From the IMG/VR virus record IMGVR_UViG_2923159863_000006: a DNA stretch of 64,000 bases. One strand, written 5' to 3'. The notes beneath the pieces are model-generated. The model ran no database searches, had not been told where the DNA came from, and saw only the letters and a program-made list of their open reading frames with translations. The position numbers were made by a program, and so were the translations under genes. Shown in pieces: positions 1 through 55,513 of this stretch; position 1 is the first letter of the stretch, and every line of letters begins with the position of its first letter. This stretch comes from a virus. Taxonomy: Duplodnaviria > Heunggongvirae > Uroviricota > Caudoviricetes.

Positions 1-1590
<1,590 letters not shown>

Positions 1591-4709: not shown

Positions 4710-4806
4710 CTGCTCAACTCCTGTCCTTTCAACTCGGTCTGCCTGTAGAGTTCCTGCATATCCCGACGACCCGGAAGATTCCCAGGACGGAAGAGAACGA
4801 TGACTA

Positions 4807-5229: not shown

Positions 5230-5273
5230 TATCCGAATTGCTGTATATGCGTACAGTGGTTGGCGATGGGTGG

Positions 5274-5456: not shown

Positions 5457-5539
5457 GTCGTGGTGCTCCTTGGAGCAGGGGCGCCATTCTCCCGGATGGC
5501 TTGTGAAGAACGAGTAGTACGCTTCATCTCACCCATTGC

Positions 5540-5904
5540 TAACTCTCCGTATCAAGTAGCGCCCGGCATACCGGCAGTCCGGATCGCGTGCTTCGTGCCC
5601 CTCAAGGCAATCGGGGCACAGTCCGTTGTTCATGTGCTTCCTTTCCCGTAGCGGACCTGCGGAGCGTGTCGTGATTCGCTGACCGTCAGGCCGTTGGGCG
5701 CCGTCTCGAGGCAGGCGTTAAAAGCCGTCCGTCTTCAGGTTCTCAGCGGTAGGCAGCAGGCCTCCCCATTGCCGGGCTCCGGCACAACCACCACCCCTGC
5801 GCGCAGGGCTTCTAGGTCTTGCTCGACAACATCCCGTTCGCGCATAGCTTTCAAGCACATGCGCCTGCTCTCGTCGGCGACATGTTTGAGATCCTCGATG
5901 TGCG
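5540..5904 (-). pseudogene. 3' part of the homolog of 37393-37974, truncated at the repeat boundary
   Basis: Identity with copy 2 ends abruptly at 5904 (37764 in copy 2). Confidence 0.4.
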
Positions 5905-12246: not shown

Positions 12247-12509
12247 CTGTTAAAAAATTCGCCAGCGAGTCTGGCTACACCGAAGACGCCGTGCGCTCGA
12301 AGATCCGCGACGGAATCTGGCGCCTCGGCGAGATATGGAAAAAAGCACCGGATGGCCGGACGCTTATTGATGTAGAGGGGTATGAAGCATGGGTAGAGAT
12401 GGGCGGGGAGTCAGGGCAGTCTCTGATTCGAGTATCGAAATCACGTTCATGTATCGCGGCGTCAGGTGCCGGGAGCGCATCTCGCTCAAGCCCACCGCCA
12501 CTAACCTGA
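12234..12509 (+). CDS. xis: Phage excisionase-like HTH protein
   Basis: LTVKKFASESGYTEDAVRSKIRDGIWRLGEIWKKAPDGRTLIDVEGYEAWVE, immediately upstream of and overlapping int. Confidence 0.55.
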   Translation: MRYLTVKKFASESGYTEDAVRSKIRDGIWRLGEIWKKAPDGRTLIDVEGYEAWVEMGGESGQSLIRVSKSRSCIAASGAGSASRSSPPPLT

Positions 12510-33293: not shown

Positions 33294-33415
33294 TCTGGAG
33301 AAGGAAGGCGTGTACCATTTTTTGTACCAATCGCTGCGAATTCTGGCGAATCATGTCGCCTGAAAGCCTTGATTTTACAGCGCTGCGCATCGCTTTACAT
33401 CGCGAAAAAAATCGC

Positions 33416-33443
33416 ATGGTGATGTTAGCTGTAGATATCAAGG
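33416..33443. other. Internal att (attP-like junction) carrying a ybiT 5'-end mimic
   Basis: Same 27 bp as 1563-1590, preceded by phage rather than ybiT sequence. Confidence 0.5.
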
Positions 33444-33471
33444 CATTGTCCTGCGGGGCTTTGCGAGATGG

Positions 33472-34689
33472 TTACGCGCTTTCCTCTGCTTCCTGTACCA
33501 ATTCCGTACCAGTTTTAACCCTGGTCTGTAGCTTCTCCAGCTCGCTCCAATCCGAGGCGGAGTTAAGCCACTTGGCATAAGTCGATAGCAGCATCTGCAC
33601 GCTGTGGCCTAGCTGCCCAGCGATAAACGCAGGGTTCATGCCAGCCATCAGGCACATGGTTGCGTATGTGTGGCGGGTGTCATACTGCCGGCGCCTTCTG
33701 ATGGATAGAGCATCAAGCGCGGCGTGGAAGTGCTTTATGGTAACACTTGGCTCCTTGATCCACAGCCCGCCTTTGCTGGGCGGGAATACGAACGGGCTGA
33801 CTGCGAACTCCGAGACGGATGCGACCTGCTTCAGGCGCGCAATCCGCTTGGCCTCTGCCAGGGCATTTAAGGCACGATCATTGAGCAGCACGTCGCGCTC
33901 ATGCTTGGTCTTTACTCGCTCCTCGATCCCGCGATCTATGACGATCCGGCACACATGAATACGTCGTGCCTCTTCGTCTACCTCATCCCATCGAAGGGCG
34001 AACGCCTCTCCAGGCCGAAGACCAGTGAAGAACAGGAATTCGTACAGTGCGGCGTAGATCCTAGAGTACTTCCCTAGGGTCGCGTACAGGTGCTGGATGA
34101 TGCGTTCTGCCTCGTCCCTGGTGAATGGATCTACCAGTTTCTTAGACACCCGCGGCTTCTCAAGGGGCGCCATCGGGTTCTTCTTGATCAGGCCGTCTTT
34201 CACAGCGGAATCTAGGATCGTCGACAGCTTGAACATCGCGTTTCGCTTCACGCCTGGCGACGTCCACTCGATGCTGCTGATGATTCGGCGCAAGAGGGTA
34301 GGCGTGATTTGATCAAGCCGGGCTACTGCTAGATGCGGCATCCAGTATTGGTTGAGGATGCTCTTGTAGTTCTTCCGTGTCCCAAGCACAATCTCTCGGC
34401 TGTCTAGCCAGAGTTGAGCATGCTCACCGAACAGAGGGATTTGGCTGCTGACCGATTCCGCAATCGCAGACCCTGGGAAGAACTCTGCATACTTGGCTTC
34501 ATCCATGATGCCAAGCTTGATTGCCTGGACTACCTGATCTCTAAGACCGGATGCAGTCTTAATCCCTTTTTGCGTCGCGGGATAGGGGAGTGTTTCGCAC
34601 TTCCTTGTTCCGTTCCACATGAAGCGGATACGGATAGAGTTGCCGATGACTTCCACCCCGGTGGGCATACCCAAAGGCTTTCGAGCCAT
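33472..34689 (-). CDS. int: Tyrosine integrase (identical to 1621-2838)
   Basis: As above. Confidence 0.9.
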   Translation of the reverse strand: MARKPLGMPTGVEVIGNSIRIRFMWNGTRKCETLPYPATQKGIKTASGLRDQVVQAIKLGIMDEAKYAEFFPGSAIAESVSSQIPLFGEHAQLWLDSREIVLGTRKNYKSILNQYWMPHLAVARLDQITPTLLRRIISSIEWTSPGVKRNAMFKLSTILDSAVKDGLIKKNPMAPLEKPRVSKKLVDPFTRDEAERIIQHLYATLGKYSRIYAALYEFLFFTGLRPGEAFALRWDEVDEEARRIHVCRIVIDRGIEERVKTKHERDVLLNDRALNALAEAKRIARLKQVASVSEFAVSPFVFPPSKGGLWIKEPSVTIKHFHAALDALSIRRRRQYDTRHTYATMCLMAGMNPAFIAGQLGHSVQMLLSTYAKWLNSASDWSELEKLQTRVKTGTELVQEAEESA

Positions 34690-34871
34690 TCGTCGTATCT
34701 CCGTCGACTGTAGATTATTTTCCCGTTGACCTTGTTCCAGACGCCTTCTGGAATCTGTCCCTTTGACCGTCTGGTTTGTAGGGCGCGGTAGGTTATCCCA
34801 AGCAGCGCCGCCATGACCTGTTCGGGCACCTTGTCTTCGTACTCGATTTGCTCTGCGGTACTCATAGGCAA
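34530..34871 (-). CDS. xis: Excisionase / AlpA-like
   Basis: As 2679-3020. Confidence 0.45.
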   Translation of the reverse strand: MPMSTAEQIEYEDKVPEQVMAALLGITYRALQTRRSKGQIPEGVWNKVNGKIIYSRRRYDEWLESLWVCPPGWKSSATLSVSASCGTEQGSAKHSPIPRRKKGLRLHPVLEIR

Positions 34872-35109
34872 TACCTCTCCGCCCCAGCTATTGCCGGGGA
34901 GGGCATGATGGTAGGATTTAGACGCCCAGCCGGGTTAGCTCAGGGAGAGCTAGTGGCGCCCGGCTGGGCTTACAGCAACCGTCTGATCATTAATTTTCTT
35001 ATAAATCATGTGCTTATGTGTGATAGCACTAAGAAAATGAGTAAGACCGTCGGCAACCCGAGCAGCATGGTCTTCATGTAGCCCTTCATGACTCCGTTCC
35101 AGAACGGGC

Positions 35110-35295
35110 TCACTCCCCACCACCTGCCTTCCTGCGCTGATTCGCTCTGATCCTCTGCGCTTTTTTCTTGGCCTCGTCTCGGCTATCTGCCTCTATGCGA
35201 AACACTTCACACAGCGCATAGTCTGGATCATCTGGACTGCCTCCAGTGCTCCAGCTTCCGTCTGGGAAGCGGGCAACGGTCCATACTAGTTTCAT
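35110..35295 (-). CDS. Hypothetical 61-aa protein
   Basis: Conserved with 3259-3444. The upstream extension of the listed ORF overlaps the next gene out of frame. Confidence 0.3.
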   Translation of the reverse strand: MKLVWTVARFPDGSWSTGGSPDDPDYALCEVFRIEADSRDEAKKKAQRIRANQRRKAGGGE

Positions 35296-35639
35296 TCCCC
35301 ACCTCCCATCGACTTGCCGATCTCTGCGGCGGCTTCGGTGATTGCCAGCCTTGTCGCTGCCATCTCGCCTAGCTTTTCCCAATAGATCGCGCAGTATTCG
35401 TGACCTGCTTGGTTCGATACCAGGGTCCATTGGTTTTCTCGGTCCGGAGTGACTACAAGTCCGCGCTTCACAGCCAGCCTCAGCGCGTCGCCGTCGTCCT
35501 TCAGAGGGTTCCAGGTGGCCCGGTTATCCCAGCCGCTTCCATCGTTCAGAGGGCGCGCCATAGTTTCCCAGAACTCGGACCACGTGTATCCAACCCCCGC
35601 CGCCCGCGCCGCCAGTTCGAGTAGTTCGCGGTCGTTCAT
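35292..35639 (-). CDS. Hypothetical phage early protein (115 aa)
   Basis: Intact here. Frameshifted in copy 1. Confidence 0.45.
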   Translation of the reverse strand: MNDRELLELAARAAGVGYTWSEFWETMARPLNDGSGWDNRATWNPLKDDGDALRLAVKRGLVVTPDRENQWTLVSNQAGHEYCAIYWEKLGEMAATRLAITEAAAEIGKSMGGGE

Positions 35640-36046
35640 TTCTTGGCTCCTTCTATGGCTGCGTCGATTGCAGCGTCGAGGTGTTCTCCGAATAGATGCG
35701 ATGTGCGGTTACGAACCACCACAACTCCGCGCTCCTTCTGCCGCAATGCGCGATACCGCGCAGCATCCTTCGCCATGCGCCGAATCTGCTCTGGAATGCT
35801 GACATTGCCGCCGTCTGGAGGGTCCATGTAGTAGGTACCGGGGAGGGCGCTTGCGCATTGACTAAGCTCTGCCTCCAGCCGCTCAACCTCGGCAATCAGC
35901 CAGAGAACAACATCCGGAGAGGTCGCCACCATGAACTCCTGATCAACGTGGAACTCCGGGAAAGCATCTACGGATGAGGCCTTGTACCAGTCGCCTTTGT
36001 CGCGCGCCCGCTCCGCCAGCTCCTTCAGCTTGTTGGTGTCGGTCAT
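35636..36046 (-). CDS. Ead/Ea22-like protein
   Basis: Identical to 3783-4193. Confidence 0.6.
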   Translation of the reverse strand: MTDTNKLKELAERARDKGDWYKASSVDAFPEFHVDQEFMVATSPDVVLWLIAEVERLEAELSQCASALPGTYYMDPPDGGNVSIPEQIRRMAKDAARYRALRQKERGVVVVRNRTSHLFGEHLDAAIDAAIEGAKK

Positions 36047-36252
36047 TGCTTTTTCTCCAAGTGCTTATGAATCAGCCATTGGAGGAAGCTGCCCAAAATG
36101 CAAAGCACAAGCAGCACAGGGCCAAGGCCAACGATGTACCCGAGCGCGGCGCCAAGCCTCATCTCTAGGACGAAGATGAACCATTGGCTGATGGCAATTC
36201 CAATGGATGTCCCAAGCACGCAATATGCGAGCATCTTCAAAAACGTCTTCAT
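36043..36252 (-). CDS. Small two-TM membrane protein (69 aa)
   Basis: Hydrophobic. ATGA-coupled to the upstream gene. Confidence 0.45.
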   Translation of the reverse strand: MKTFLKMLAYCVLGTSIGIAISQWFIFVLEMRLGAALGYIVGLGPVLLVLCILGSFLQWLIHKHLEKKQ

Positions 36253-36563
36253 GGCGCCACCTCGATTCCGGCTTGCTGGAGGGCTTGAGTGATCCGGTCA
36301 GTCGCATAGCAGTAGCCGGTATCGAAGTTGTCACGGCAGGAGTTCTGCCAGTCACGTTGACAGTCCTCGATGCCGTCGTCCGGCAACTCCACCCTCAGAG
36401 CCGCGCGGCTGGCTTTCCAAGTCTCCCAATCCCATTGAATGTGCTCGTACTCGTACCGGCCATCAGCCTGTATGGAGAACAGGCCATCGCCAAAGTCGTC
36501 GTAATCAGTAGACCAACGCACTTTCGCGTGCGCTTCAAACTCGTCTCTCACTGCTTGCTCCAT
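36249..36563 (-). CDS. Hypothetical protein (104 aa)
   Basis: Intact ORF. Confidence 0.45.
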   Translation of the reverse strand: MEQAVRDEFEAHAKVRWSTDYDDFGDGLFSIQADGRYEYEHIQWDWETWKASRAALRVELPDDGIEDCQRDWQNSCRDNFDTGYCYATDRITQALQQAGIEVAP

Positions 36564-36764
36564 CTGCTCAACTCCTGTCCTTTCAACTCGGTCTGCCTGT
36601 AGAGTTCCTGCATATCCCCGACGACCCGGAAGATTCCCAGGACGAAGAGAACGATGACTATCACTGCCAATATGGTTTCGTTGTCGTTGTCCACGGTTGG
36701 TCCTCCGGGGGCGGATGCGTTTGTTTCGTTGTTGGGTGTCGATGCCGTGATTCCGGCATCGGTA

Positions 36765-37082
36765 TCAGTCGCCCGCCGCTTTGGCGATTAGGTGCATGAG
36801 CATTTCGCGCAGTTGCTCGCGCTCGAGCACCTGGCCGGTCTTTGCGTACTCGTCGGCTTGGCTCAGGATCGCGTCGATCTCGATGTTGAACATCGGCGAG
36901 AGCACGTCTGGCTCACACTGTTCGAGCAGCAACTGGATTGCTCGGGTCGGGTGCGCCATCGTGATCCCGAGCCAGTTGTAGGCCGAGGCAGTGCGGTAGT
37001 AGCGGAGGCCGGCGATCTCATGTCGGCGCGGCGGGCGGAAGGGTTTCGTGCGCATATTCAATCCGGGTAGTGGGTAGCCCAT
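36765..37082 (-). CDS. Hypothetical protein (105 aa)
   Basis: Intact ORF. Confidence 0.45.
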   Translation of the reverse strand: MGYPLPGLNMRTKPFRPPRRHEIAGLRYYRTASAYNWLGITMAHPTRAIQLLLEQCEPDVLSPMFNIEIDAILSQADEYAKTGQVLEREQLREMLMHLIAKAAGD

Positions 37083-37126
37083 TATCCGAATTGCTGTATA
37101 TGCGTACAGTGGTTGGCGATGGGTGG

Positions 37127-37390
37127 CTATGCCTGCTCGCTCAGCAGGGCGCGGAGTTCGTTGCGAGCTACGACGTAATCAGCATGCGAAAGCAGTGGCT
37201 CGCACAGCCTGCGCAAAAGCCCCTCGCTGACCACTACATGGCCCGCTGGAATAACTGCCAACTCCCGCACTTCATAGCCTGGCCAGTCCTGAGGGTTTGC
37301 TCTGACCATGTCGTGGTGCTCCTTGGAGCAGGGGCGCCATTCTCCCGGATGGCTTGTGAAGAACGAGTAGTACCGCTTCATCTCACCCAT
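37127..37390 (-). CDS. Hypothetical protein (87 aa)
   Basis: Intact ORF. Confidence 0.45.
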   Translation of the reverse strand: MGEMKRYYSFFTSHPGEWRPCSKEHHDMVRANPQDWPGYEVRELAVIPAGHVVVSEGLLRRLCEPLLSHADYVVARNELRALLSEQA

Positions 37391-37392
37391 TG

Positions 37393-37974
37393 CTAACTCT
37401 CCGTATCAAGTAGCGCCCGGCATACCGGGCAGTCCGGATCGCGTGCTTCGTGCCCCTCAAGGCAATCGGGGCACAGTCCGTTGTTCATGTGCTTGACTTT
37501 CCCGGTAGCGGACCTGCGGAGCGTGTCGAGCGCTGATTCGCTGACCGTCAGGCCGTTGAGGCGCGCCAGTTCGTCGAGGCAGGCGTTAAAGCCGTCCGTC
37601 TTCAGGTTCTCAGCGGTAGGCAGCAGGCCTCCCCATTGCCGGCGCTCCGGCACAACCACCACCCCTGCGCGCAGGGCTTCTAGGTCTTGCTCGACAACAT
37701 CCCGTTCGCGCATAGCTTTCAAGCACATGCGCCTGCTCTCGTCGGCGACATGTTTGAGATCCTCGATGTGCGCCCCGATCATCCGACCAATGTCATCCGG
37801 CTTGTCTGGGAATCGTGCGCGGTCTTCGAGAAGGCGCGCGACTTCCTCCCTTAGCGCCTGGGCCTCGGCTTCGAGCTTGGCGTAGTCGGCATCCGCGACG
37901 TGACCCTTCACAGCGCCGCAGTCCGGGCATTGCAGCGCGCCGAAATCCCAAGCTTCGTGCGAGCAGTTACTCAT
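37393..37974 (-). CDS. Zinc-ribbon protein with coiled-coil middle (193 aa)
   Basis: N-terminal CPDCG and C-terminal CPDCLEGHEARDPDCPVC cysteine pairs. Confidence 0.45.
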   Translation of the reverse strand: MSNCSHEAWDFGALQCPDCGAVKGHVADADYAKLEAEAQALREEVARLLEDRARFPDKPDDIGRMIGAHIEDLKHVADESRRMCLKAMRERDVVEQDLEALRAGVVVVPERRQWGGLLPTAENLKTDGFNACLDELARLNGLTVSESALDTLRRSATGKVKHMNNGLCPDCLEGHEARDPDCPVCRALLDTES

Positions 37975-40016: not shown

Positions 40017-40352
40017 TCATGCACTCATCGCCGATTTGATCTGCGCTGAGTGGCTGCGGCTGACGGGTATCCAGTTCTCGGTTCCGAGCAGTAGTACCTC
40101 GCCGGCTTGGCTGTCATCAGGTCGGGTTTTGAACATGCTGATCAGCGAGCGTCGGACTAGGGCTTTCCGGTGGGCGCGGATGAACTCGTCGGCGAACTCA
40201 GTCTCCAGAGCCTTAAGCGTTTCGTTCAAGACAAGTACGCCATCCGGGTAGTACGCGATGACGTACTTGTCTTCGGCGACGAAGTGGGTGATCTGCGAGA
40301 CGGAGATTGCCTTGGAGTGCTTGCCGCAGGTGGCTTTGAGTACGGTTCTCAT
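40017..40352 (-). CDS. LytTR-domain DNA-binding protein
   Basis: MRTVLKATCGKHSKAISVSQITHFVAEDKYVIAYYPDGVLVLNETLKALE matches the LytTR signature. Confidence 0.6.
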   Translation of the reverse strand: MRTVLKATCGKHSKAISVSQITHFVAEDKYVIAYYPDGVLVLNETLKALETEFADEFIRAHRKALVRRSLISMFKTRPDDSQAGEVLLLGTENWIPVSRSHSAQIKSAMSA

Positions 40353-40993
40353 GCTGCCTTCTCCCGTAACTTTGCCTCGTACTCGTCGACAAGCAGCTTG
40401 AACGACCACAAGTCGGACTCAAGTTCCTCGATGTAGTCGTCGTCGCGCTTGAACTCTCGCCACCAGAGTTGACGGCCTACAGGCTCCAGCGCAGGGCAGT
40501 ACATGCCGACGTGCCAGAACTTGCGGCCAGTGATCCACATGCATCCTTGAACCTGATCCATGATTCCGCTGGCGTCGTTGTCGATGTGGAAGGCGCGAAG
40601 CTTCTCCGGGGCGAGGAAGCACTTGTACTCGCTGCCGCCATCCTCGCCGATCAGTCCGTCAGCGCTGGCTCCGAACATGCCGTCGTCGGTTGTCACGAAG
40701 CCGGCGCGCTGGATGATCAGGCCTGTCTGAATCTCGTGCTCCATGCGGGCCTCTGGTTCCAGTTCGTGACCACGCTTCATCTGCCAGGTCTCGAATCCTC
40801 CATCTAGCGGCTGCCCGCTGATACGCTCAACGGCCAGCTTGAAGGCGTAATCCAGAGCGGCGGAAGTCGGCTGGCCTTTGTTGGCGCCAGATTTAAGCCT
40901 TGCGCGGGCATCGCCGAACATACTGGCGGTGATGCACCCGGCCCTGGCCTGGTGCCATTCGGGGCTTCCTTGGTCGCAGGTGATAATAATCAT
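40349..40993 (-). CDS. YqaJ-type viral recombinase exonuclease
   Basis: CDQGSPEWHQARAGCITASMF is a classic YqaJ N-terminal motif. Confidence 0.8.
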   Translation of the reverse strand: MIIITCDQGSPEWHQARAGCITASMFGDARARLKSGANKGQPTSAALDYAFKLAVERISGQPLDGGFETWQMKRGHELEPEARMEHEIQTGLIIQRAGFVTTDDGMFGASADGLIGEDGGSEYKCFLAPEKLRAFHIDNDASGIMDQVQGCMWITGRKFWHVGMYCPALEPVGRQLWWREFKRDDDYIEELESDLWSFKLLVDEYEAKLREKAA

Positions 40994-41739
40994 TTCTCTG
41001 TCCCCTCAAGAGCCTTGCCACGTTCGGCCGCAGCCGCTTTAACGCGCTCATAGCCAGTCGTGTCGCCGGCCGCGCGAAGCACCCCGACAGCCGCCTTCCA
41101 GATCGCGGCGAGTTCGTCCTTATCCTTGGCCTCGTCAATGCGCTCCAGAATGTCGATAACGACCTGCTGATCCAGAGCGGGCTGCTGCGATACGGCGTTG
41201 AACGCGTCATCGTCTTCGCCGTGGGTTGTGTAGTTGAGCAGGGCGCCTGCTGTGTAGCGCTTGCCGTAGCTGACCGAACTGGCCACGGCCTGGACGGCGT
41301 TCTTGTTGCCGCTGGTGTCTGCCGGAAGCAGCATCGAGGTGCGCTCGCTGTGACCGCCGCGGTGACTGAGGACGCCTTCAACTTCGACGCCTTTCTCATT
41401 GCGCGGGGTGCGGAATGTCAGGGCAAATCCGTGCTTGGCCAGGATCGGCTTTAGGCGCTCGTTGATGTCCTCCCAGAGCGCGTAGCTGTAGCGGCCATTC
41501 GCGTCTCCACGCTCCGCAATTGCGGGCAGTTCTTGCTGCATTGCAGCTAGCGCCTCGGTGTACTGCTGCTCTGCCTGTCTGGCCTGGAATCGCTCGTGCA
41601 TCTGCATCAGGCGCTCCATCTTCTCGATGTCGCACTGAGGGTCTGCGGCGGCGCGCTGGATAACTTGGAGGATGGTGGCCGACTCTCCGGCCTGAATTAC
41701 GGCAGCACTTTCATGCCGCTGTGCAATGGAGTTGCTCAT
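40990..41739 (-). CDS. erf: ERF-family single-strand annealing protein
   Basis: YSYALWEDINERLKPILAKHGFAL and ASSVSYGKRYTAGALL align with P22 Erf (YKYRSCEDILEGVKPLL..., ATSSYARKYCLNGLF). Confidence 0.7.
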   Translation of the reverse strand: MSNSIAQRHESAAVIQAGESATILQVIQRAAADPQCDIEKMERLMQMHERFQARQAEQQYTEALAAMQQELPAIAERGDANGRYSYALWEDINERLKPILAKHGFALTFRTPRNEKGVEVEGVLSHRGGHSERTSMLLPADTSGNKNAVQAVASSVSYGKRYTAGALLNYTTHGEDDDAFNAVSQQPALDQQVVIDILERIDEAKDKDELAAIWKAAVGVLRAAGDTTGYERVKAAAAERGKALEGTEK

Positions 41740-41747
41740 GATGGGCC

Positions 41748-42812
41748 TCAGTAGTTGATTGTGATGTGAGGAACCTTGCGCTGAGCGATCAGTGTGATCG
41801 CCTGCTTGGCGCATTCCTCGGGCATGCCGCCGGCGATCAGGGCCGCCAGGGCTTCGTTGTTGATGGCTTTCTTGTGGGCCTTGTCGGCTTCTCGGGCTGC
41901 TGCCTCGCGCTCGATCCTGGCTTGCTCGTCTGCCTGCCGTTGGCGCTCTGCGGCAGCGGCTTCTTCGGCGCGCCGCTGTGCATCACGCTCAGCCTGCTCG
42001 GCGCGCTGCTGTGCTTCCAACTTCTCGCGCTCCGCCTTCTCGGCAGCGAGTCGCAGTTCCAGTTCCCGGCGCTCTGCGGCAGCCTTTGCCTCGGTTTCGC
42101 GGCGAGCGGCGGCTTCGCGTTCTTCCTGGGCGCGTCGTTCCGCTGCCAGGCGCTCGGCCTCGGCTGCTTCGCGGGCAATGCGTTCCTCGCGCTCTTTCTG
42201 CTCGCGAGCAGCAGCTTCGGCGCGCAGTCGCTCCAGCTCGGCCTGCTCGGCTTCATACTTCTCGCGTGCAACGAGGGCTTCGCGCAGCGCGGCCAGGGCC
42301 TTATCCTTGGTGCGGGCGGCCTCGGTTTCGAACTCTTCCCAGTCTGCGCCAATGGATAGGCCTTCCAGCCATTCAATGTTGGCTTTCAACTCGGTCGAAT
42401 CTAGGTCTCGGCATTCCAGGCGCAGGTTGATCTGATCGATGCCGGCCTGGTGTTTGGCCTTGCGCATTTCCTCGCGCTGCTCCCACTCCGTTAGGGGCTG
42501 GCGTACCTCTGCCTGCCAGGAGTCCAGCAGGTCACGCATGCGCTTACGCTCGGCGTCGACCTTCTTCGGCACTTCCTTCAGCTCGGCGACCAGTTCCTTA
42601 CCTACGTTGTCCAGCGCCGTCTTGGAGCGGGCTACCTTGTAGGCGATGGAGGCGATGGCCTCTCTGCCCTTGCGGGTAGTGACGTCTGGCACGAAGCCGT
42701 CGATCTCTTCGCGAATCTTGGCCAGGAACGGGTCAAGGCCATTGGCGGCCGAGTAGACTTGGAGGGCGGTTTCTTTGGCCGGCACTTCGACCAGTTGGGT
42801 TTCTGCGGACAT
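41748..42812 (-). CDS. Coiled-coil phage protein (E/A/R-rich repeat core, conserved termini)
   Basis: Low-complexity AEERRA repeats. Antisense ORFs in this span are artefacts. Confidence 0.5.
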   Translation of the reverse strand: MSAETQLVEVPAKETALQVYSAANGLDPFLAKIREEIDGFVPDVTTRKGREAIASIAYKVARSKTALDNVGKELVAELKEVPKKVDAERKRMRDLLDSWQAEVRQPLTEWEQREEMRKAKHQAGIDQINLRLECRDLDSTELKANIEWLEGLSIGADWEEFETEAARTKDKALAALREALVAREKYEAEQAELERLRAEAAAREQKEREERIAREAAEAERLAAERRAQEEREAAARRETEAKAAAERRELELRLAAEKAEREKLEAQQRAEQAERDAQRRAEEAAAAERQRQADEQARIEREAAAREADKAHKKAINNEALAALIAGGMPEECAKQAITLIAQRKVPHITINY

Positions 42813-45452: not shown

Positions 45453-46029
45453 GTCTCACCTCGCGGTCGCGTGCATGCGGCAGCGTTCCGAATCGCTGTC
45501 GTCATACAGGCGAAAAAATGCCCGGACTTGCCGGGCTAATGAGGGGGAGGGTGGGGATGGCCGGCGATGAATCCGGCTTTCGGTGTGGCACTGATTCCGA
45601 GCTTGTACGGCTACGCCGCGCATACCACCTATCACTGCGCCGAAGCGGCTTACGTTTCGATCTCGCTGCGGATCATCACTCCGCTATACATCCCCATTGA
45701 AGGGTGGCGTCATTGCGGGGGAAGTCAGTCGTGGCGCTCGGTATATGATCCCCAAGCTGCCTCTTGTTCGAACCACTCGCCTTCGGCCATCTTCTCGGGC
45801 CAGCCAGGCGCGCCCTGGTTCTGAAGCCAAAAGCTGGCAAAGCGCTCAAGCTCAGCCTTGCGTTGCTCAACGTACTTGAGCACTGTGATTTGTTCGCTCA
45901 TCTTGCCTCCAGTGTGTATGCGCCAGGGCGCGGTTATGCGGTGGCCTTGTCGATTGCGGCATTCATCAGTTCATGAATGGCGTCGTACTCCTTAACCGAT
46001 TCAGGCGAGAGGAAGCCCGATCCGCTTGG

Positions 46030-46263
46030 CTAGACGACATCCCACAAACGAGCGTACAGGCGCGAGAAGGCTTGGCACGCCTCCAGAAGCTCAGGCGCCG
46101 CAGCCATCAGGCGGGCGTTTGCAATCGACATAGCAACGTCTTCAGCTATGTTTTGCGGGGTCGGCGAGGCGGCATTGACGTTTGAACAGATACACTTTTT
46201 CCCACCGAAGACCATGTTATTTCGAGACACCCAAGGCCCCGGCGTATGCGATTGCTTGCTCAT
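46030..46263 (-). CDS. Hypothetical; probably frameshifted near its 3' end
   Basis: Protein-like continuation (..SPESVKEYDAIHELMNAAIDKATA) in the adjacent frame. Confidence 0.3.
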   Translation of the reverse strand: MSKQSHTPGPWVSRNNMVFGGKKCICSNVNAASPTPQNIAEDVAMSIANARLMAAAPELLEACQAFSRLYARLWDVV

Positions 46264-46597
46264 TCTGTTCTCCTGCCTGTCAGGCGTCTTGCGGTTGAAT
46301 AGGGCGACGCTTCAAACGGATCGGCAAAAACATCGTCAGAAGCAGAATTCCCCACATTGCAGCGAACTCAAAAAGGGTTGGCATGGATTCCTCTCTTGCC
46401 CGGGGGCTGGTAATTGGCTGTATGGGGGAGTGGTCTGGCCGGTGCTGATCTCCGGCGTAGCTGGAAGCTTCGATGGCATAAAGCCAACCCTTCACCGTCC
46501 AACCCAGTCGTCTGTGACGCACCTACGCTACAGCTATGCGCTCAGACCACTCTCCGATACAGCCATAAGGCTGGTGTTCGTTGATGCCCCGGCGAAC

Positions 46598-46655
46598 CGG
46601 GGCGTGTTGACTTCTTCGATGCCCCTCTTGCGAAGGGCATCTGAGAAATCGTTTA
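46598..46655. repeat. 58-bp direct repeat, copy 1, containing a TTGACT box and a GATGCCC/GGGCATC hairpin
   Basis: Matches 47307-47364 with one mismatch. Confidence 0.7.
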
Positions 46656-46664
46656 TTCATGGGT

Positions 46665-46850
46665 TTATGCTGAGTAGAGATACCAAGGGTTTAAACCGTC
46701 CTTGTGTCTCCAGATGAATCGGTCAAGCTCATGCGAACATGGCGGTTTGAAAATGCAGATATTCCCGTCGACTTTCTCGCACCAACCGATCAGCTCGCCG
46801 GCTGGCTTGGTCATGTGCTGCTCACTGGCGAAGATGCGGCAGCCCCGCAT
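46665..46850 (-). CDS. Small Cys-rich protein (approx. 61 aa), low GC
   Basis: Cassette gene 3. CEKVDGNICIFKPPC. Confidence 0.3.
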   Translation of the reverse strand: MRGCRIFASEQHMTKPAGELIGWCEKVDGNICIFKPPCSHELDRFIWRHKDGLNPWYLYSA

Positions 46851-46870
46851 CGGCTTGAAGAATTGGTACC

Positions 46871-47077
46871 TCACGCGTGCATCCGCACGGTGATGTAGCC
46901 GTTGCTGGCAACAACGTGGTCCCATCGGTTGAACCAGATGAGGTCGCCGAACTTCTTCATGGCGGCCTGGCGTACCTTGATCAGCACGTCATCCGGTGTC
47001 TCGTTGCCTTCCGGCAGGGCAATCCAGTCCAGGCGCTTGCCGTTGCTCAGGTGCGCATCGACATTGAATTGAGCCAT
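46871..47077 (-). CDS. Small hypothetical protein (approx. 68 aa)
   Basis: Cassette gene 2. Confidence 0.3.
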   Translation of the reverse strand: MAQFNVDAHLSNGKRLDWIALPEGNETPDDVLIKVRQAAMKKFGDLIWFNRWDHVVASNGYITVRMHA

Positions 47078-47087
47078 TTCAGTCTCC

Positions 47088-47294
47088 TTACCAGGGTTTC
47101 CCAGCGTTGATGTATGCGTTTCCTGCGAGTTGCGTGAGCGCAACTAGCTCCATCGAATCGATCTCACCGCCGTAGTACAGGCCGCGCAGCATTCCAACCG
47201 TTTCGTGGTACTCAATGCGCGCCTCGCGATCGTCTTTCTCCTTTCGGAGGATCCGAAGTTCCTGGCGTACAGCAAGTAAGGATTTTTCATTCAT
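47088..47294 (-). CDS. Small hypothetical protein (68 aa)
   Basis: Cassette gene 1. Confidence 0.3.
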   Translation of the reverse strand: MNEKSLLAVRQELRILRKEKDDREARIEYHETVGMLRGLYYGGEIDSMELVALTQLAGNAYINAGKPW

Positions 47295-47306
47295 TTTCTG
47301 CTCCTC

Positions 47307-47364
47307 CAGGGCGTGTTGACTTCCTCGATGCCCCTCTTGCGAAGGGCATCTGAGAAATCGTTTT
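47307..47364. repeat. 58-bp direct repeat, copy 2
   Basis: See 46598-46655. Confidence 0.7.
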
Positions 47365-47665
47365 CCCCTTTCGGGGCCGGTCGATCCCGCTTGATGCTTT
47401 CGCCTTGCGGGGCCGGGGAGGGTTTCGCGTCCTCCGTGCTAGCCGGTGAGTCTCCGGCTTGTTGCCGCGGTGTTCTGCGGCGTTGAGGTAAATCTACAAC
47501 CCAAAGTTACAGAGCGCAAGGGTTTCAGGTGTAAAAATTTAGAATAAAAGTTGTTGATCATAGAATTCAGTAACTTACGGTTGTTTCCATGGGCGAACGA
47601 AGCCGACCAGCGGCTGAATGCCACTACCAGAAATAAGGTTTTACAAAGGCGTTTCGGTCAGACAG

Positions 47666-47697
47666 GCAAGAAAAAGCCCCATTCAAGGGGCTTGTTC
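47666..47697 (-). terminator. Rho-independent terminator of cI
   Basis: agcccc-attcaa-ggggct hairpin with a T5 tract on the minus strand immediately after the cI stop. Confidence 0.55.
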
Positions 47698-47698
47698 G

Positions 47699-48406
47699 TT
47701 ACCAGAGGGCTGATGACCAGAAGACTCTACCAAGGACTCGGATCTCTTGGCTCACCATTTCCTGATGTGTGTACTCTTCGTCCGGGTGCTCATCGCTGTT
47801 ATAGCTGCGAACGCGAATGCCGCCGCCTGGGAGGCGGTACAACACCTTCACTCTGAGTTCTCCGCCGTGGTCGAGAGCATACATCTTGCCATCGACCACG
47901 ACAGTGCTTCCCTGGTCTATTCCTACGGTGCTCCCATCAGGCAACACTGGCTCCATGCTGTTACCACTTACGGTCACGCATACAGCATCTGATGGGTCTA
48001 CCTGTTGTTGTCGTAGTGTCAGCTTTCCAAAACGAAGCTTCCTGCTAGAGGACTGCTGTATTGCGGTCCTGCCGCTACCAGCAGAAAGCTCTACTTCCTT
48101 GAGAAAAGGCACGTAAACCTCGTCGTTCTCTAGAGGTGTTTCATCGTCCCAAACGTCCATCGGGCCAAGGAGCTGGGCGTTACTGATGGGGCCTCGAGCT
48201 TTAGGCTCTTCTCCAGAGAATAGATAGGAGGCAGTTGTATTCAAATTGAATGCTATCTCTTCCAGCCGCTTCCCACGCGGTGTAGAGACCTCAGATTCCC
48301 ATTTCTGAACGGCCTGGGGCGAAACCCCTAGGCGCCGTGCTAGCTCGGACTGGTTCAGGCCTGCTTCTTCGCGTTTGCGCGCAATGCGCTTTCCTATCGT
48401 GCTCAT
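47699..48406 (-). CDS. cI: CI-like repressor (XRE HTH plus S24 LexA-like peptidase), approx. 235 aa
   Basis: LNQSELARRLGVSPQAVQKWE HTH. C-terminal S24 region (GNSMEP, Ser/Lys dyad). The listed ORF's N-terminal extension to 48637 is probably artefactual. Confidence 0.8.
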   Translation of the reverse strand: MSTIGKRIARKREEAGLNQSELARRLGVSPQAVQKWESEVSTPRGKRLEEIAFNLNTTASYLFSGEEPKARGPISNAQLLGPMDVWDDETPLENDEVYVPFLKEVELSAGSGRTAIQQSSSRKLRFGKLTLRQQQVDPSDAVCVTVSGNSMEPVLPDGSTVGIDQGSTVVVDGKMYALDHGGELRVKVLYRLPGGGIRVRSYNSDEHPDEEYTHQEMVSQEIRVLGRVFWSSALW

Positions 48407-48512
48407 GCAGAAATGATGCAACCAGCGGTTGTAGAAATCATTGTGAATTTGAGTTGTAGTCAGGCGCGGCATGCGATAACCTCTAGTTGTAACTGTAACT
48501 TTGAGGTTCACC
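48407..48512. promoter_or_regulatory. Divergent cI/cro promoter-operator region
   Basis: Repeated AGTTGTA half-sites (gttgtagaaatcat, gagttgtagtc, tagttgtaactgtaac). Confidence 0.4.
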
Positions 48513-48716
48513 ATGGAAGAGCACCCGATCTGTAAGGCAGTCAAGGCTGCCGGCGGCCAGTCCGCCCTGGCTCGCATCCTCAACGTCACTCCCCAGGCAG
48601 TGCAGAAGATGTGTGCTTTTGGGCGGGTGCCTGCCAAGCGAGTCCTCGAAATTGAGAAGGCTACTGGCGTTTCTCGCCATGAGCTTCGCCCCGACCTTTA
48701 CCCGTTAGCCGCATAA
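48513..48716 (+). CDS. cro: Cro-like HTH protein
   Basis: GGQSALARILNVTPQAVQKM HTH. Divergent from cI. Confidence 0.6.
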   Translation: MEEHPICKAVKAAGGQSALARILNVTPQAVQKMCAFGRVPAKRVLEIEKATGVSRHELRPDLYPLAA

Positions 48717-48729
48717 GGAAATCCACCAG

Positions 48730-48918
48730 ATGTACGACGACCCTCGTCACCGCAATACCAACGAGACAAAGCTCCGCCTCGACGATGACTACGAGGCATT
48801 TCTTCGTGACCTCGCTCGGATTCATCGCACGCAAAAAGGCGTGATTGTTCGTGCGGTGATGAAGGAGTGGATCGACGAAATGAGGGCACAGCTTACCGCG
48901 AACACTGATGCGGCCTGA
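48730..48918 (+). CDS. Hypothetical small regulator (62 aa)
   Basis: ORF in the cII position. Confidence 0.3.
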   Translation: MYDDPRHRNTNETKLRLDDDYEAFLRDLARIHRTQKGVIVRAVMKEWIDEMRAQLTANTDAA

Positions 48919-48936
48919 AGGCCCGAAGGAGGGCCT

Positions 48937-49134
48937 ATGGGCACTGATGATGGGCTGGCTCTCGAATCTCTGCTGAGTGAGGAAGACCTCAGATTCTTGA
49001 AGGATCTGGCAGCAGAGAGAGGGGTAACACCGCAAGAACTGGCTAAGCAGGGAATTCAATCCCTGATCGTCAGAAAGACAAGACCAAAGCTGATGCCAGT
49101 CTCTGGAGAGATAAGGCAGTTCAAGCTGAGATGA
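48937..49134 (+). CDS. Hypothetical (65 aa)
   Basis: ORF. Confidence 0.3.
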   Translation: MGTDDGLALESLLSEEDLRFLKDLAAERGVTPQELAKQGIQSLIVRKTRPKLMPVSGEIRQFKLR

Positions 49135-49208: not shown

Positions 49209-50018
49209 ATGATAACAAATATTGTTCAGCTTGACAAGTCCAGGGGGTTCACCCGGATGGACAATGAATTGTACGAGGCCCTTATTGGGGCTGATCTTTC
49301 CGGGCGCGAGCTTAGGGTAGCTCTGGCGGTTCATCGCCTCACTGCTGGGTTCAACCAAGATGAGTCTCGCATCACAGCTTCGGTGATCGCTGAAATGTCA
49401 GGAATTCGTCGTGAGCATGTATCTCGGATGCTGTGTGAGCTTCTGCGTCAGCGGGTTATTTACCGGGTTGGTGGGTCTAAAGGCCCAATCGGTTTTTCTC
49501 CGGTTTCTGAGTGGAAGATTGATGAAAAGATGTGTGCCGAAAACGGCACAAAGGATTTGGCACAGAGTGCCGAAAACGGCACAAAAGTAGTGCCAATTTC
49601 GGCACACTATAAAGACAGTAAAGACAATACAACTCCTAACGGAGTTGTTACGCCCGCGAAGCCTGTCGAAGAAAAACCTGCGAAGGCTAAATCGTTTGGT
49701 CTGGCCGATCTCCTGGCTGACAACCCGCATAGCATCCCCGAACAACTCCTGGCTGACTGGATCACCACCCGCAAGGCAAAGCGAGCAGCGCTGACCCCGA
49801 CCGCCTGGAAGCGACTGAATAACTCTCTGGCCAAGTGCAAGGCTGCTGGGTTCACCGCTGAATACGCTGTGGAAACCATGGTTTCGAAGGGCTGGCAGAC
49901 CGTTGAGGTCGACTGGCTGAAGAACTCAACTCGGAGTTTTTCAGGGCCTCAATCGGTCCCTGCGTACGACGCCAATGACACCTCGTGGGCCATTGGCCTG
50001 GAACAGGACCTGTTCTGA
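49209..50018 (+). CDS. Replication initiation protein (lambda O-like N-terminal domain)
   Basis: FTRMDNELYEALIGADLSGRELRVALAVHRLTAGFNQ matches the O N-terminal family. Iterons lie inside the gene. Confidence 0.65.
   Translation: MITNIVQLDKSRGFTRMDNELYEALIGADLSGRELRVALAVHRLTAGFNQDESRITASVIAEMSGIRREHVSRMLCELLRQRVIYRVGGSKGPIGFSPVSEWKIDEKMCAENGTKDLAQSAENGTKVVPISAHYKDSKDNTTPNGVVTPAKPVEEKPAKAKSFGLADLLADNPHSIPEQLLADWITTRKAKRAALTPTAWKRLNNSLAKCKAAGFTAEYAVETMVSKGWQTVEVDWLKNSTRSFSGPQSVPAYDANDTSWAIGLEQDLF
49532..49612 (+). repeat. Three iterons (TGCCGAAAACGGCACA-type inverted repeats), candidate ori
   Basis: gtgtgccgaaaacggcacaaagg, gagtgccgaaaacggcacaaaag, tagtgccaatttcggcacactat. Confidence 0.5.
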
Positions 50019-55245: not shown

Positions 55246-55421
55246 AAGTCTCTGAGGTCATCGAGCTATTAAGAAAAGATCTTGAACTAAAAGGAGATAG
55301 AGAATTCTTCTTAGAAGATGCAGATACTGGTTGGCGTTTGAGAGTTAACCAAGAGAATTTTTATAGTTTTGATGAACGCATTGAACTGTCTGTAGGTTAT
55401 TCGTCTGCGTTACGTGATTGA
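55242..55421 (+). CDS. AT-rich (about 35 percent GC) 59-aa ORF, candidate moron
   Basis: MKVSEVIELLRKDLELKGDREFFLEDADTGWRLRVNQENFYSFDERIELSVGYSSALRD. ATGA-coupled to Q. Confidence 0.35.
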   Translation: MKVSEVIELLRKDLELKGDREFFLEDADTGWRLRVNQENFYSFDERIELSVGYSSALRD

Positions 55422-55453: not shown

Positions 55454-55487
55454 CACATAGTTTGCGGTTTTACCGCATGAGATTCAG

Positions 55488-55513
55488 AGCCCAGCCTAGC
55501 GCTGGGCTTTTTC
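55488..55513 (+). terminator. tR'-like rho-independent terminator (Q antitermination target)
   Basis: gcccagc-ctagc-gctgggc hairpin followed by TTTTT, just upstream of the first late gene. Confidence 0.6.

What the first reader, a model, noticed from the sequence alone, without database searches (positions are those of the whole stretch)
46598..47364. Three-gene low-GC cassette flanked by 58-bp direct repeats in the rex position downstream of cI
Two 58-bp near-perfect direct repeats, each with a TTGACT box and a GATGCCC...GGGCATC hairpin, bracket three small minus-strand genes that are co-oriented with cI and lie just beyond its terminator. In lambda the equivalent position holds the rexAB exclusion genes. 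This looks like a self-contained moron that may encode an exclusion or anti-phage function, or a recombination-delimited module.
Basis: partly seen in the sequence, partly recalled or inferred. Interest (0 to 1): 0.7.

Follow-up and report, generated by a model that had tools for sequence, protein, structure and literature searches.

The report
Repeated RNA hairpin leader flanking early-gene cassette
The two 58-base repeats are copies of a structured RNA leader found in over 100 Pseudomonas aeruginosa temperate-phage sequences, always in the early-left operon next to the repressor gene. There it sits just ahead of many unrelated small genes and marks where such genes are swapped, so this is not a self-contained 'moron' in the rex position.

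Summary
The repeats are real: 46597-46654 and 47306-47363, 56 of 58 bases identical, bracketing three small minus-strand ORFs. The interpretation needs revision.

- **Location.** The window holds a P. aeruginosa lambdoid prophage (relatives D3, PAJU2, Ab31, YA3, JBD44). An operator-flanked pL promoter lies between the cI terminator and the cassette. The cassette is therefore in the lambda N position (first pL genes), not the rex position.
- **The TTGACT box.** It is the complement of the 3' arm of a long RNA hairpin on the gene strand, not a -35 box.
- **The hairpin.** It has a 7-bp lower stem, a 2x2 internal loop, a 10-bp upper stem and a tetraloop. It shows compensatory changes and G:U pairs only in the pL-transcript sense. 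It has no U-tract and no Rfam match.
- **Distribution.** I found about 115 copies, always co-oriented with cI. Of 105 scored copies, 76 lie exactly 20-21 nt upstream of the ATG of ORFs from 23 unrelated families.
- **The cassette.** In other phages the same cassette is again flanked by element copies. PAJU2 has the same flanks, one copy and no cassette.

Best reading: a portable hairpin-plus-RBS leader that also serves as a homology patch for cassette exchange. Its molecular role is untested (RNase III-type processing or RBS insulation, or read-through of a conserved downstream terminator). The functions of ORF1-3 are unknown.

The parts
47306..47363 (-). Element copy 1 (promoter-proximal). 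RNA hairpin at 47359-47318: lower stem GAUUUCU/GGAAGUC, internal loop CA/GA, upper stem GAUGCCCUUC/GAGGGGCAUC, GCAA loop.
   Evidence: MFE -37.3 kcal/mol, z -5.6; CM 75.8 bits on the minus strand against 26.4 on the plus strand
46597..46654 (-). Element copy 2 (distal). Same hairpin at 46650-46609. One of its two differences from copy 1 turns a U:G pair into U:A in the lower stem. No SD or ATG follows it.
   Evidence: z -7.8; 75.2 bits
47295..47317 (-). Conserved single-stranded spacer with the Shine-Dalgarno sequence (AACACGCCCUGGAGGAGCAGAAA; GGAGG at 47307-47303). It joins hairpin 1 to the ORF1 start codon.
   Evidence: Conservation across 30 distinct variants stops at ATG+2.
47088..47294 (-). 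ORF1, 68 aa (phrog_9139). It is the commonest gene found directly behind the element. Homologs only in P. aeruginosa, all annotated hypothetical.
46871..47077 (-). ORF2, 68 aa (phrog_7788). Homologs across Pseudomonas species. The AF2 model (pLDDT 91) is a small alpha+beta fold with only generic structural matches.
46665..46874 (-). ORF3, 69 aa with a GTG start overlapping the ORF2 stop (phrog_29680). C12, H20 and C32 are invariant and C40 nearly so. The AF2 model (pLDDT 85) is an SH3/Tudor/KOW-like beta-barrel.
47491..47519 (-). Inferred pL promoter: -35 TTGCGC (47519-47514), 17-nt spacer, -10 TAGATT (47496-47491). It is overlapped by the operator-like CTGTAACTTTGGGTTGTAG (47512-47494). A related, oppositely oriented copy of that motif lies at 47586-47568.
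   Evidence: The call rests on positional homology to D3 pL/OL. The generic promoter scan did not reach threshold here.
47364..47489 (-). pL leader upstream of element 1. It begins with the block ACCUCAACGCCGCAGAAC, shared with D3 and Ab31, and is strongly structured.
   Evidence: (z -6.2)
47674..47693 (-). Intrinsic terminator of the cI transcript
47699..48406 (-). cI-type repressor (HTH_3 plus Peptidase_S24)
46586..46603 (-). UUCG-tetraloop hairpin (GCCCCGG UUCG CCGGGGC) directly after element copy 2. Its arm forms the first bases of the reported left repeat.
   Evidence: present in D3, absent in PAJU2; two copies in BUCT566
45520..45536 (-). tL1-like intrinsic terminator inside the pL operon, downstream of the variable small genes. 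The surrounding 71-nt block is conserved in 60 phage records.

Best explanation
Each 58-nt repeat is one copy of a conserved, strand-specific RNA module of the early-left (pL) operon of D3/PAJU2/Ab31/YA3/JBD44-type P. aeruginosa temperate phages. The module is a roughly 42-nt interrupted hairpin followed by about 21 nt of unstructured sequence carrying the Shine-Dalgarno site and the start codon. The three ORFs between the copies are immediate-early genes transcribed from cI-repressed pL. They are not cI-operon (rex-like) genes.

The duplication exists because the operon is built of units of the form [hairpin leader + small gene(s)]. Copy 1 is the leader of ORF1. Copy 2 is the resident leader copy, which in cassette-free relatives such as PAJU2 and D3 is the only one. 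Homologous recombination within the conserved flanks of the hairpin moves cassettes in and out, plausibly helped by the phage's own ERF/YqaJ recombination pair.

At the RNA level I think the hairpin most likely acts post-transcriptionally. It would be an RNase III-type processing or stability site, and a structural insulator that keeps the adjacent RBS open whatever lies upstream, as in the T7 early-mRNA sites and the lambda N-leader hairpin.

Shown here: the structure, the strand, the position in the operon, the fixed distance to start codons, the presence/absence polymorphism and the family-wide distribution. Inferred: expression from pL only, the recombination route, and the processing or insulation role.
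For: **Structure**
- The fold on the minus strand gives 7 bp, a 2x2 internal loop, 10 bp and a tetraloop, with z-scores of -3.5 to -7.8 in four phages. The same fold appears in eight more phages.
- On a MAFFT alignment of 23 distinct variants, 93.4% of cells are paired, against 37-58% when partners are slid by 1-3 columns. Four pairs change on both sides (CG<->GC), and 0 of 500 shuffles reach the observed covariation score.

**Strand**
- All non-Watson-Crick positions are U:G in the gene-sense strand.
- The sense RNA is more stable than the antisense in 35 of 35 variants, by a mean of 8 kcal/mol.
- The covariance model scores about 75 bits on the minus strand and 26-29 bits on the plus strand.

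**Position**
- A cI-like ORF lies within 3.5 kb upstream, on the same strand, in 57 of 91 loci. About 22 of the other 34 hold under 2 kb of upstream sequence.
- In D3 the operator motif recurs over TTGACA-17-CATACT, just upstream of a leader block that the window shares.
- The YA3 paper places PL downstream of the cI region and finds no N homolog (PMC7326022).

**Portable leader**
- 82 of 105 copies are followed by a complete ORF, 76 of them at 20-21 nt. These ORFs fall into 23 BLASTP-unrelated families.
- Conservation ends at ATG+2.

**Cassette shuffling**
- Multi-copy loci bracket the same ORF1-2(-3) cassette, with different hairpin types on either side.
- PAJU2 is an 'empty site'.
- Each downstream gene family occurs with several hairpin types.
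- ERF and YqaJ genes lie in the same operon.

**Independence from the cassette**
- ORF1 occurs in 15 phage records and the element in at least 56. JBD44 carries a copy that BLAST missed.
Against: - No cleavage, stability or translation data exist. RNase III is proposed from geometry and analogy only.
- The lower stem and the 3' tail are almost invariant while the upper stem varies. Simple hairpin function does not explain that; it suggests sequence-specific recognition or homogenisation by recombination.
- Copy 2 in the window, and the single copies in D3 and PAJU2, are not next to an RBS. RBS insulation therefore cannot be the whole story.
- The covariation rests on about five hairpin types that are related by descent, so the number of independent events is small.
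- The IMG/VR loci include many near-identical prophages, so copy counts are not independent.
- The pL call is by homology and motif. The generic promoter scan did not reach threshold there.
Confidence: 0.6

Rival explanations
1. The hairpin is a cis-acting antitermination signal in the pL leader (nut-like with an unknown protein, or put-like and protein-independent). It would let RNA polymerase read through the conserved tL1-like terminator into the delayed-early genes (ERF, exonuclease, xis/int). The second copy is then a redundant by-product of cassette recombination.
For: - The element always lies in the pL leader, upstream of the first genes.
- A strong intrinsic terminator (45536-45520) lies about 1.1 kb downstream of the distal copy, inside the same operon.
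- The terminator block is 94-99% conserved in most of its 60 phage records, which largely overlap the element-bearing set.
- Similar terminators lie 0.9-3.3 kb downstream of the element in 37 of 91 loci.
- No N homolog has been reported, and the genes between the element and the terminator vary.
- The lower stem and 3' tail are sequence-invariant while the upper stem only keeps its pairing. That is what recognition by a fixed partner would predict.
Against: - There is no boxA.
- The stem is 17 bp with non-conserved loops (GCAA, GAGA, CACC, CAAC and others). This is unlike a 5-bp boxB with a defined loop, and unlike the two-hairpin put RNA.
- There is no counterpart in the pR operon. The covariance model finds only the two pL copies in 64 kb.
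- Antitermination does not explain the exact 20-21-nt spacing to 76 start codons, or 2-4 copies per operon.
- Co-occurrence with the terminator is confounded by common ancestry.
Confidence: 0.2
2. One reading: a self-contained moron in the rex position, with its own TTGACT promoter and hairpin terminator, expressed in the lysogen and giving superinfection exclusion or anti-phage defence.
For: - The cassette is an accessory, presence/absence-variable segment.
- The proteins are small and of unknown function, so a defence or exclusion role cannot be excluded.
Against: - TTGACT is on the strand opposite the ORFs and has no -10 partner. It forms the 3' arm of the RNA stem.
- The hairpin has no U-tract.
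- The cI terminator and pL/OL lie between cI and the cassette.
- GC content is within one sd of the window mean.
- There are no PADLOC hits.
- The same element precedes 23 unrelated gene families, so it is not specific to this cassette.
Confidence: 0.05
3. The element is a DNA-level site: a target of a site-specific recombinase or nuclease (attC-like cassette site), or a palindromic operator for a DNA-binding regulator. The RNA fold would be incidental.
For: - The imperfect palindrome has conserved outer arms and a variable centre, and it flanks mobile cassettes. This superficially resembles integron attC sites.
Against: - All imperfect positions are G:U-compatible on one strand only. The complementary strand would carry A.C mismatches.
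- Loop length varies (4 to 10 nt) and the upper stems are completely different yet paired. That is unexpected for a dsDNA operator.
- There are no RYYYAAC/GTTRRRY core sites at the stem ends, and no integron integrase. The only integrases are ordinary phage tyrosine integrases more than 12 kb away.
- In YA3 a junction falls inside the hairpin. This fits general homologous or illegitimate recombination, not a fixed crossover point.
Confidence: 0.07

Closest known systems
PeSLs (promoter-early stem-loops) of T4-type phages (Arbiol et al. 2010, PMC2839356)
   Same: Both are short conserved motifs with a stem-loop, repeated between small accessory ORFs in a hypervariable early region. In both, recombination between copies explains insertions, deletions and replacements between related phages.
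   Different: PeSLs hold a working sigma-70 promoter and an effective terminator, so each cassette is its own transcription unit. Here no promoter or U-tract is present and all copies lie inside one cI-controlled operon. The conserved part runs into the RBS and start codon. The hosts are temperate Pseudomonas phages, with 1-4 copies per genome.
SAS/ESAS (start-associated sequences) of Cluster K mycobacteriophages (Pope et al. 2011, PMC3203893)
   Same: In both, a conserved inverted repeat with a variable spacer sits immediately upstream of a conserved motif at the translation start of many unrelated genes. The function is unknown in both.
   Different: ESAS departures are reported as not compensatory, which gives little support for an mRNA hairpin. 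Here the pairing covaries and is strand-specific. ESAS occur at many sites across the genome, whereas this element is confined to the pL operon.
RNase III sites of the T7 early polycistronic mRNA, and the RNase III hairpin in the lambda N leader (from established knowledge, not tested here)
   Same: All are interrupted hairpins of about 17-20 bp with an internal loop, placed in the leader or between cistrons of an early phage operon and directly upstream of an RBS.
   Different: There is no sequence similarity. Cleavage in Pseudomonas is untested. Copy 2 is not adjacent to an RBS.
Lambda nutL / HK022 putL
   Same: All are structured RNAs in the pL leader, ahead of the first early gene and of a tL1-type terminator.
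   Different: Here there is no boxA, no short boxB with a defined loop, no N homolog, no second site in pR, one hairpin rather than two, and several copies per operon.
Lambdoid 'boundary/linker' sequences at module junctions, and morons (from established knowledge of the HK97/HK022/HK620 comparisons)
   Same: Short conserved sequences at gene boundaries coincide with the mosaic joints. The cassette is an optional extra between genes that are neighbours elsewhere.
   Different: Moron criteria (own promoter, own terminator, deviant composition) are not met. The linker here is a covarying RNA structure, not merely conserved DNA.

Membership tests
Moron | Inserted between genes or sequences that are adjacent in related phages | tested here: met
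   PAJU2 has the same leader flanks with one element and no cassette.
Moron | Own promoter on the gene strand | tested here: not met
   TTGACT is on the opposite strand and has no -10 partner. No minus-strand promoter-like site was found in 45800-48800. Caveat: the same scan also missed the inferred pL.
Moron | Own factor-independent terminator | tested here: not met
   The hairpin has no T/U run on either strand and is not listed by the terminator scan.
Moron | Nucleotide composition different from the neighbours | tested here: not met
   GC is 0.545 against 0.578 +/- 0.042.
Moron | Expressed from the repressed prophage | not testable with these tools
   Needs lysogen RNA-seq. The anatomy predicts repression by cI at pL.
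rex-position (cI-operon) genes | Located between the cI stop codon and the cI-operon terminator, upstream of pL/OL, and co-transcribed from pRM | tested here: not met
   The terminator at 47693-47674 directly follows cI. The pL/OL-like region at 47491-47586 lies between it and the cassette.
Lambda-type nut site | boxA (CGCUCUUA-like) next to a short boxB stem with a conserved GNRA-like loop | tested here: not met
   There is no boxA. The interrupted stem is 17 bp, and the loop varies from GCAA/GAGA to CACC/CAAC/CUCC.
Lambda-type nut site | A second site in the pR operon and an N-family protein | tested here: not met
   The covariance model finds only the two pL copies in the window. No N homolog appeared in Pfam or PHROG scans of the ORFs, and none was found in YA3.
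PeSL-type mobile regulatory cassette | Conserved repeat flanking small accessory ORFs, with indels between relatives bounded by the repeats | tested here: met
PeSL-type mobile regulatory cassette | The repeat holds a functional early promoter and a terminator | tested here: not met
RNase III processing site | About two turns of dsRNA, often interrupted by an internal loop, in a transcribed leader or intercistronic region | tested here: met
   7 + 10 bp with a 2x2 loop, on the transcript-sense strand.
RNase III processing site | Cleavage by RNase III in vivo or in vitro | not testable with these tools
   No transcript-end data are available.
Integron attC site | RYYYAAC / GTTRRRY core sites at the ends of the folded strand, and an IntI integrase nearby | tested here: not met
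   The stem arms are GAUUUCU/GGAAGUC. Only phage tyrosine integrases were found, at 33475-34689, 1621-2838 and 12389-13543.
Rfam families | Match to any curated covariance model | tested here: not met
   Only chance-level hits (E >= 0.5, far below gathering scores) in 45500-49000.

The most novel reading that the evidence does not exclude
The hairpin-plus-RBS module is a natural 'plug-and-play adapter' for immediate-early accessory genes in P. aeruginosa temperate phages. It would be one conserved RNA structure doing three jobs. It would set the expression of whatever small gene is placed 21 nt behind it, by RNase III-gated processing or RBS insulation. It might also license read-through of the conserved tL1 terminator without an N protein, in a put-like way. 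And it would provide the homology patch on which the phage ERF/YqaJ system swaps these genes between phages.
Probability: 0.25. Interest if true: 0.7.

Novelty: new variant of a known kind. Interest (0 to 1): 0.45.

Why it matters
- **Correct regulatory class.** The analysis puts three unknown genes in the immediate-early pL class, not among lysogen-expressed rex-like genes. That changes which phenotypes to test: host takeover or anti-defence during infection or induction, not prophage-mediated exclusion.
- **An undescribed RNA motif.** The motif covaries and is absent from Rfam. It is shared by a large, clinically relevant group of P. aeruginosa temperate phages, including D3, PAJU2, Ab31, YA3 and JBD44, none of which has a known N-type antiterminator.
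- **A marker for accessory genes.** The motif precisely marks the hypervariable immediate-early slot. It can be used to harvest accessory genes: 23 unrelated families were found here.
- **A worked example of cassette exchange.** It shows how short structured regulatory sequences can double as recombination linkers in temperate phages.
- **A possible engineering part.** If the insulation or processing role holds, the module is a ready-made 5'-UTR part for Pseudomonas.

Tried and rejected
- **Rfam scan of 45500-49000** at a permissive E-value gave only chance hits.
- **Pfam, NCBIfam, PADLOC and PDB-sequence searches** of ORF1-3 and the neighbouring small ORFs found nothing beyond PHROG families of unknown function.
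- **Homolog searches** for ORF1-3 returned only 'hypothetical protein'.
- **The genome contigs pattern scan** was a poor choice. With 18 specified bases and a wide gap, all 120 returned rows were chance matches in unrelated taxa. It says nothing about taxonomic spread.
- **About a quarter of the viral-contig scan rows** were also chance matches and were filtered out by requiring the inner stem.
- **A SAS-like genome-wide start-associated motif** was looked for. The SD-spacer motif is not repeated elsewhere in the window.
- **ORF1 as the element's protein partner** was rejected, because the element is far more widespread than ORF1.
- **The conserved leader-start block** is present in only 25 of 91 loci, so it is not a universal landmark.
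- **Papers.** The Kropinski 2000 paper on D3 is not held in the library. The Fc02 RNA-seq paper concerns an unrelated Mu-like phage.
- **The covariance-model-fitted alignment A3** mixes sense and antisense hits. Its pair counts were therefore not used as primary evidence.
Full report
**1. The observation**

The repeat finder reports one 58-nt direct repeat pair, 46597-46654 and 47306-47363, at 97% identity and 709 bp apart. A 50-nt core matches only these two places in the 64-kb window, with none expected in shuffles. Each copy holds TTGACT followed by GATGCCCC-N-GGGCATC.

Three compact minus-strand ORFs lie between the copies. They are ORF1 (47294-47088, 68 aa), ORF2 (47077-46871, 68 aa) and ORF3 (46874-46665, 69 aa, with a GTG start overlapping the ORF2 stop). 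Each matches a PHROG family of unknown function at E of about 1e-40 or lower. An identical gene set is annotated in phage phPA-G.

The repressor is 47699-48406, with an HTH and an S24 peptidase domain. Its terminator is at 47693-47674, and cro runs divergently from 48513.

'Low GC' does not hold. The cassette is 0.545 GC against 0.578 +/- 0.042 for the window.

**2. Where it lies in the phage**

Megablast places the window among P. aeruginosa lambdoid temperate phages such as Ab31, phPA-G, PAJU2, D3 and YA3. The minus-strand operon continues through an ERF recombinase (40993-41814), a YqaJ exonuclease (40352-40993) and an integrase (33475-34689). This is the classical early-left operon.

Between the cI terminator and the first repeat lies an AT-rich stretch. 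It holds two related, oppositely oriented copies of an operator-like motif (47512-47494 and 47586-47568). It also holds a TTGCGC-17-TAGATT promoter whose -10 is followed by ACCTCAACGCCGCAGAAC.

That block aligns with D3 and Ab31. In D3 it is preceded by TTGACA-17-CATACT, which is overlapped by two copies of the annotated D3 operator motif. The YA3 paper likewise places PL downstream of the cI region and reports no N homolog (PMC7326022).

The cassette therefore sits downstream of pL/OL. This is the position lambda gives to N, not to rexAB. The pL assignment is by homology and motif; the generic promoter scan did not reach its threshold there.

**3. What the repeat is**

The 58-mer is not private to this window. 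BLAST finds it in 56 Pseudomonas phage records, mostly once per genome. A pattern scan of IMG/VR plus these records gave 105 filtered copies in 91 loci. A covariance model found about 115 sense-strand copies in the 100 loci searched, which did not include the window. It also found a diverged copy in JBD44 that BLAST had missed.

On the gene strand the sequence folds into a 7-bp lower stem (GAUUUCU/GGAAGUC), a 2x2 internal loop, a 10-bp upper stem and a tetraloop. The z-scores are -3.5 to -7.8, and the same fold is seen in D3, PAJU2, PAE2, EV13, Marin, D14O and FBPa19.

Several upper-stem types exist:
- GAUGCCCUUC-GCAA-GAGGGGCAUC
- GAUGCGCUUG-GAGA-CAGGCGCAUC
- CUGGCCCUC-CACC-GAGGGCCAG
- an extended form
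- a GAUGCCGG...CCGGCAU form in YA3

On a plain MAFFT alignment of 23 distinct variants, 93.4% of cells pair, against 37-58% when partners are slid. Four pairs change on both sides, and no shuffle reaches the covariation score.

Every non-Watson-Crick position is U:G in the gene sense. The sense RNA is more stable than the antisense in 35 of 35 variants, by a mean of 8 kcal/mol. The model scores 75 bits on the minus strand and 26-29 bits on the plus strand.

So the TTGACT 'box' is simply the complement of ...GGAAGUCAA, the 3' arm of the lower stem. The hairpin has no U-run on either strand and is not a terminator. Rfam has no match.

**4. A portable leader**

Of the 105 copies, 82 are followed by a complete ORF. 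In 76 of these the ATG is exactly 20-21 nt after ...GAAGUCAA, through a conserved spacer CACGCCCUGGAGGGCAAGACG. The ORFs fall into 23 BLASTP-unrelated families. Conservation across 30 distinct variants is 77-100% up to the ATG and drops to background two bases later.

ORF1-type genes are the commonest partner, at 35 of 82. However, the element occurs in many phages that lack ORF1. A cI-like ORF lies within 3.5 kb upstream on the same strand in 57 of 91 loci, and about 22 of the other 34 hold under 2 kb of upstream sequence. The window has only the two copies, both in the pL operon and none in pR.

**5. Why there are two copies here**

Loci with 2-3 copies almost always bracket this same ORF1-ORF2(-ORF3) cassette. 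In phPA-G the upstream copy has the CUGGCCCUC-type stem and the downstream copy the GAUGCCC-type. The flanking copies are therefore independent family members, not a target-site duplication.

PAJU2 carries the window's right-flank leader (...GGCCCCGAAAGGGGAcAACGAUUUC), one element, and then the window's left-flank sequence, with no cassette. Each downstream gene family is found with several hairpin types, and YA3 holds a half element.

Together this shows repeated recombination within the conserved arms. The operon encodes its own ERF/YqaJ pair, a class of recombinase known to use short, diverged homology (established knowledge; PMC3945230 was listed but not read).

Copy 1 is thus the leader of ORF1. 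Copy 2 is the resident leader copy. Here, as in D3, it is followed by a UUCG hairpin and a structured non-coding stretch and not by an RBS.

**6. Mechanism**

Structure, strand and position are shown; function is inferred. I favour a post-transcriptional role, either RNase III-type processing or stabilisation, together with insulation of the adjacent RBS. Three points support this:
- The geometry (about 17 bp interrupted by an internal loop).
- The intercistronic or leader placement in an early polycistronic mRNA.
- The fixed distance to start codons, which parallels the T7 early RNase III sites and the lambda N-leader hairpin (established knowledge).

The main rival is antitermination. A strong intrinsic terminator (45536-45520) lies in the same operon, after the variable small genes. 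Its 71-nt block is conserved in 60 phage records that largely overlap the element-bearing set. No N homolog is known, and the lower stem and tail are sequence-invariant.

Against that rival:
- There is no boxA.
- The loops vary.
- There is one hairpin, not two.
- There is no pR counterpart.
- Multiplicity and RBS spacing go unexplained.

A DNA-level recombination or operator site is unlikely, given the one-strand G:U pattern and the variable loop length. The moron/rex model fails on anatomy.

**7. The proteins**

ORF1 homologs are confined to P. aeruginosa. ORF2 and ORF3 homologs occur across Pseudomonas, and are adjacent in an uncultured phage (3S11_44/45). All are annotated hypothetical.

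ORF3 has invariant C12, H20 and C32 and a nearly invariant C40. It models as a small SH3/Tudor/KOW-like barrel. ORF2 models confidently as a small alpha+beta fold with generic matches. There are no defence-system or Pfam hits.

Their function stays unknown. As cI-repressed immediate-early genes, they are better candidates for host takeover or anti-defence than for lysogen-expressed exclusion. This last point is inference.

**8. Comparison and novelty**

The closest known kinds are:
- T4-type PeSLs. They are also repeated stem-loop motifs that flank and shuffle small ORFs, but they carry a promoter and a terminator.
- Cluster K mycobacteriophage SAS/ESAS. They are also inverted repeats plus a start-associated motif before many genes, but they lack compensatory changes.
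- T7 and lambda RNase III sites.
- Lambda nutL and HK022 putL.
- Lambdoid boundary sequences.

The element fails the defining tests for moron, rex-position gene, nut site, PeSL (the promoter/terminator criterion) and attC. I found no description of it in the searchable literature, although older D3 papers are not held. I rate it a new variant of a known kind: a conserved regulatory or linker motif that mediates cassette exchange.

Noticed in passing
window 1563-5904 and 33414-37772: A 4.36-kb direct repeat at 99.4% identity carries an integrase gene (1621-2838 and 33475-34689). A third tyrosine integrase lies at 12389-13543(+). The window seems to hold two adjacent or tandem prophages, or a prophage plus a remnant, that share one int module.
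   Followed up: partly
window 45520-45536 (minus strand), block 45495-45565: A strong intrinsic terminator (GCCCGGCAAGUCCGGGC + AUUUUUU) lies inside the early-left operon, after the variable small genes. The 71-nt block is conserved in 60 Pseudomonas phage records, 58 of them at 90-99% identity. This suggests regulated read-through, like lambda tL1.
   Followed up: partly
window 46415-46437 / 46543-46565 (minus-strand RNA): A 23-bp long-range stem closes a roughly 105-nt interior within a strongly structured non-coding stretch (z -6.3) downstream of element copy 2. The arms are conserved in Ab31 and phPA-G but the interiors differ. This looks like another conserved-arms, variable-centre arrangement.
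   Followed up: partly
window 46586-46603: A UUCG-tetraloop hairpin (GCCCCGG-UUCG-CCGGGGC) lies immediately after element copy 2. It is present in D3 and absent from PAJU2, where the 24-nt indel is bounded by UCAAC microhomology. It occurs twice in BUCT566, flanking other genes.
   Followed up: partly
window 46280-46384 (minus): A 34-aa hydrophobic ORF (MPTLFEFAAMWGILLLTMFLPIRLKRRPIQPQDA) lies in a block conserved in Ab31, BUCT566 and PAJU2. It may be a small membrane peptide of the immediate-early region.
   Followed up: no
window 49534-49552, 49567-49585, 49590-49607: Two identical 19-nt direct repeats plus an inverted copy (GTGCCGAAAACGGCAC-type) lie inside the replication protein O-like gene (49209-50018). 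They look like iterons, as in lambda ori within O.
   Followed up: no
window 55338-55367 and 55486-55510 (plus strand): A good sigma-70-like promoter (TTGAGA-18-TATAGT) is followed about 120 nt later by a 10-bp-stem terminator. This is the layout expected for a late promoter and terminator pair (pR'/tR') under Q-type antitermination.
   Followed up: no
window 47538-47566 (plus strand): A promoter-like site (TTTAGA-17-TAGAAT) within the pL/OL region points into the 3' end of cI, antisense to it. It may be chance.
   Followed up: no
L130 (YA3) 1950-2085 and about 2660-2710: YA3 carries one intact element with a distinct upper stem (GAUGCCGG...CCGGCAU) upstream of its 'putative transcription factor' ORF48. 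It also carries a truncated copy lacking the 5' lower-stem arm ahead of the next gene, so a recombination joint falls inside the hairpin.
   Followed up: partly
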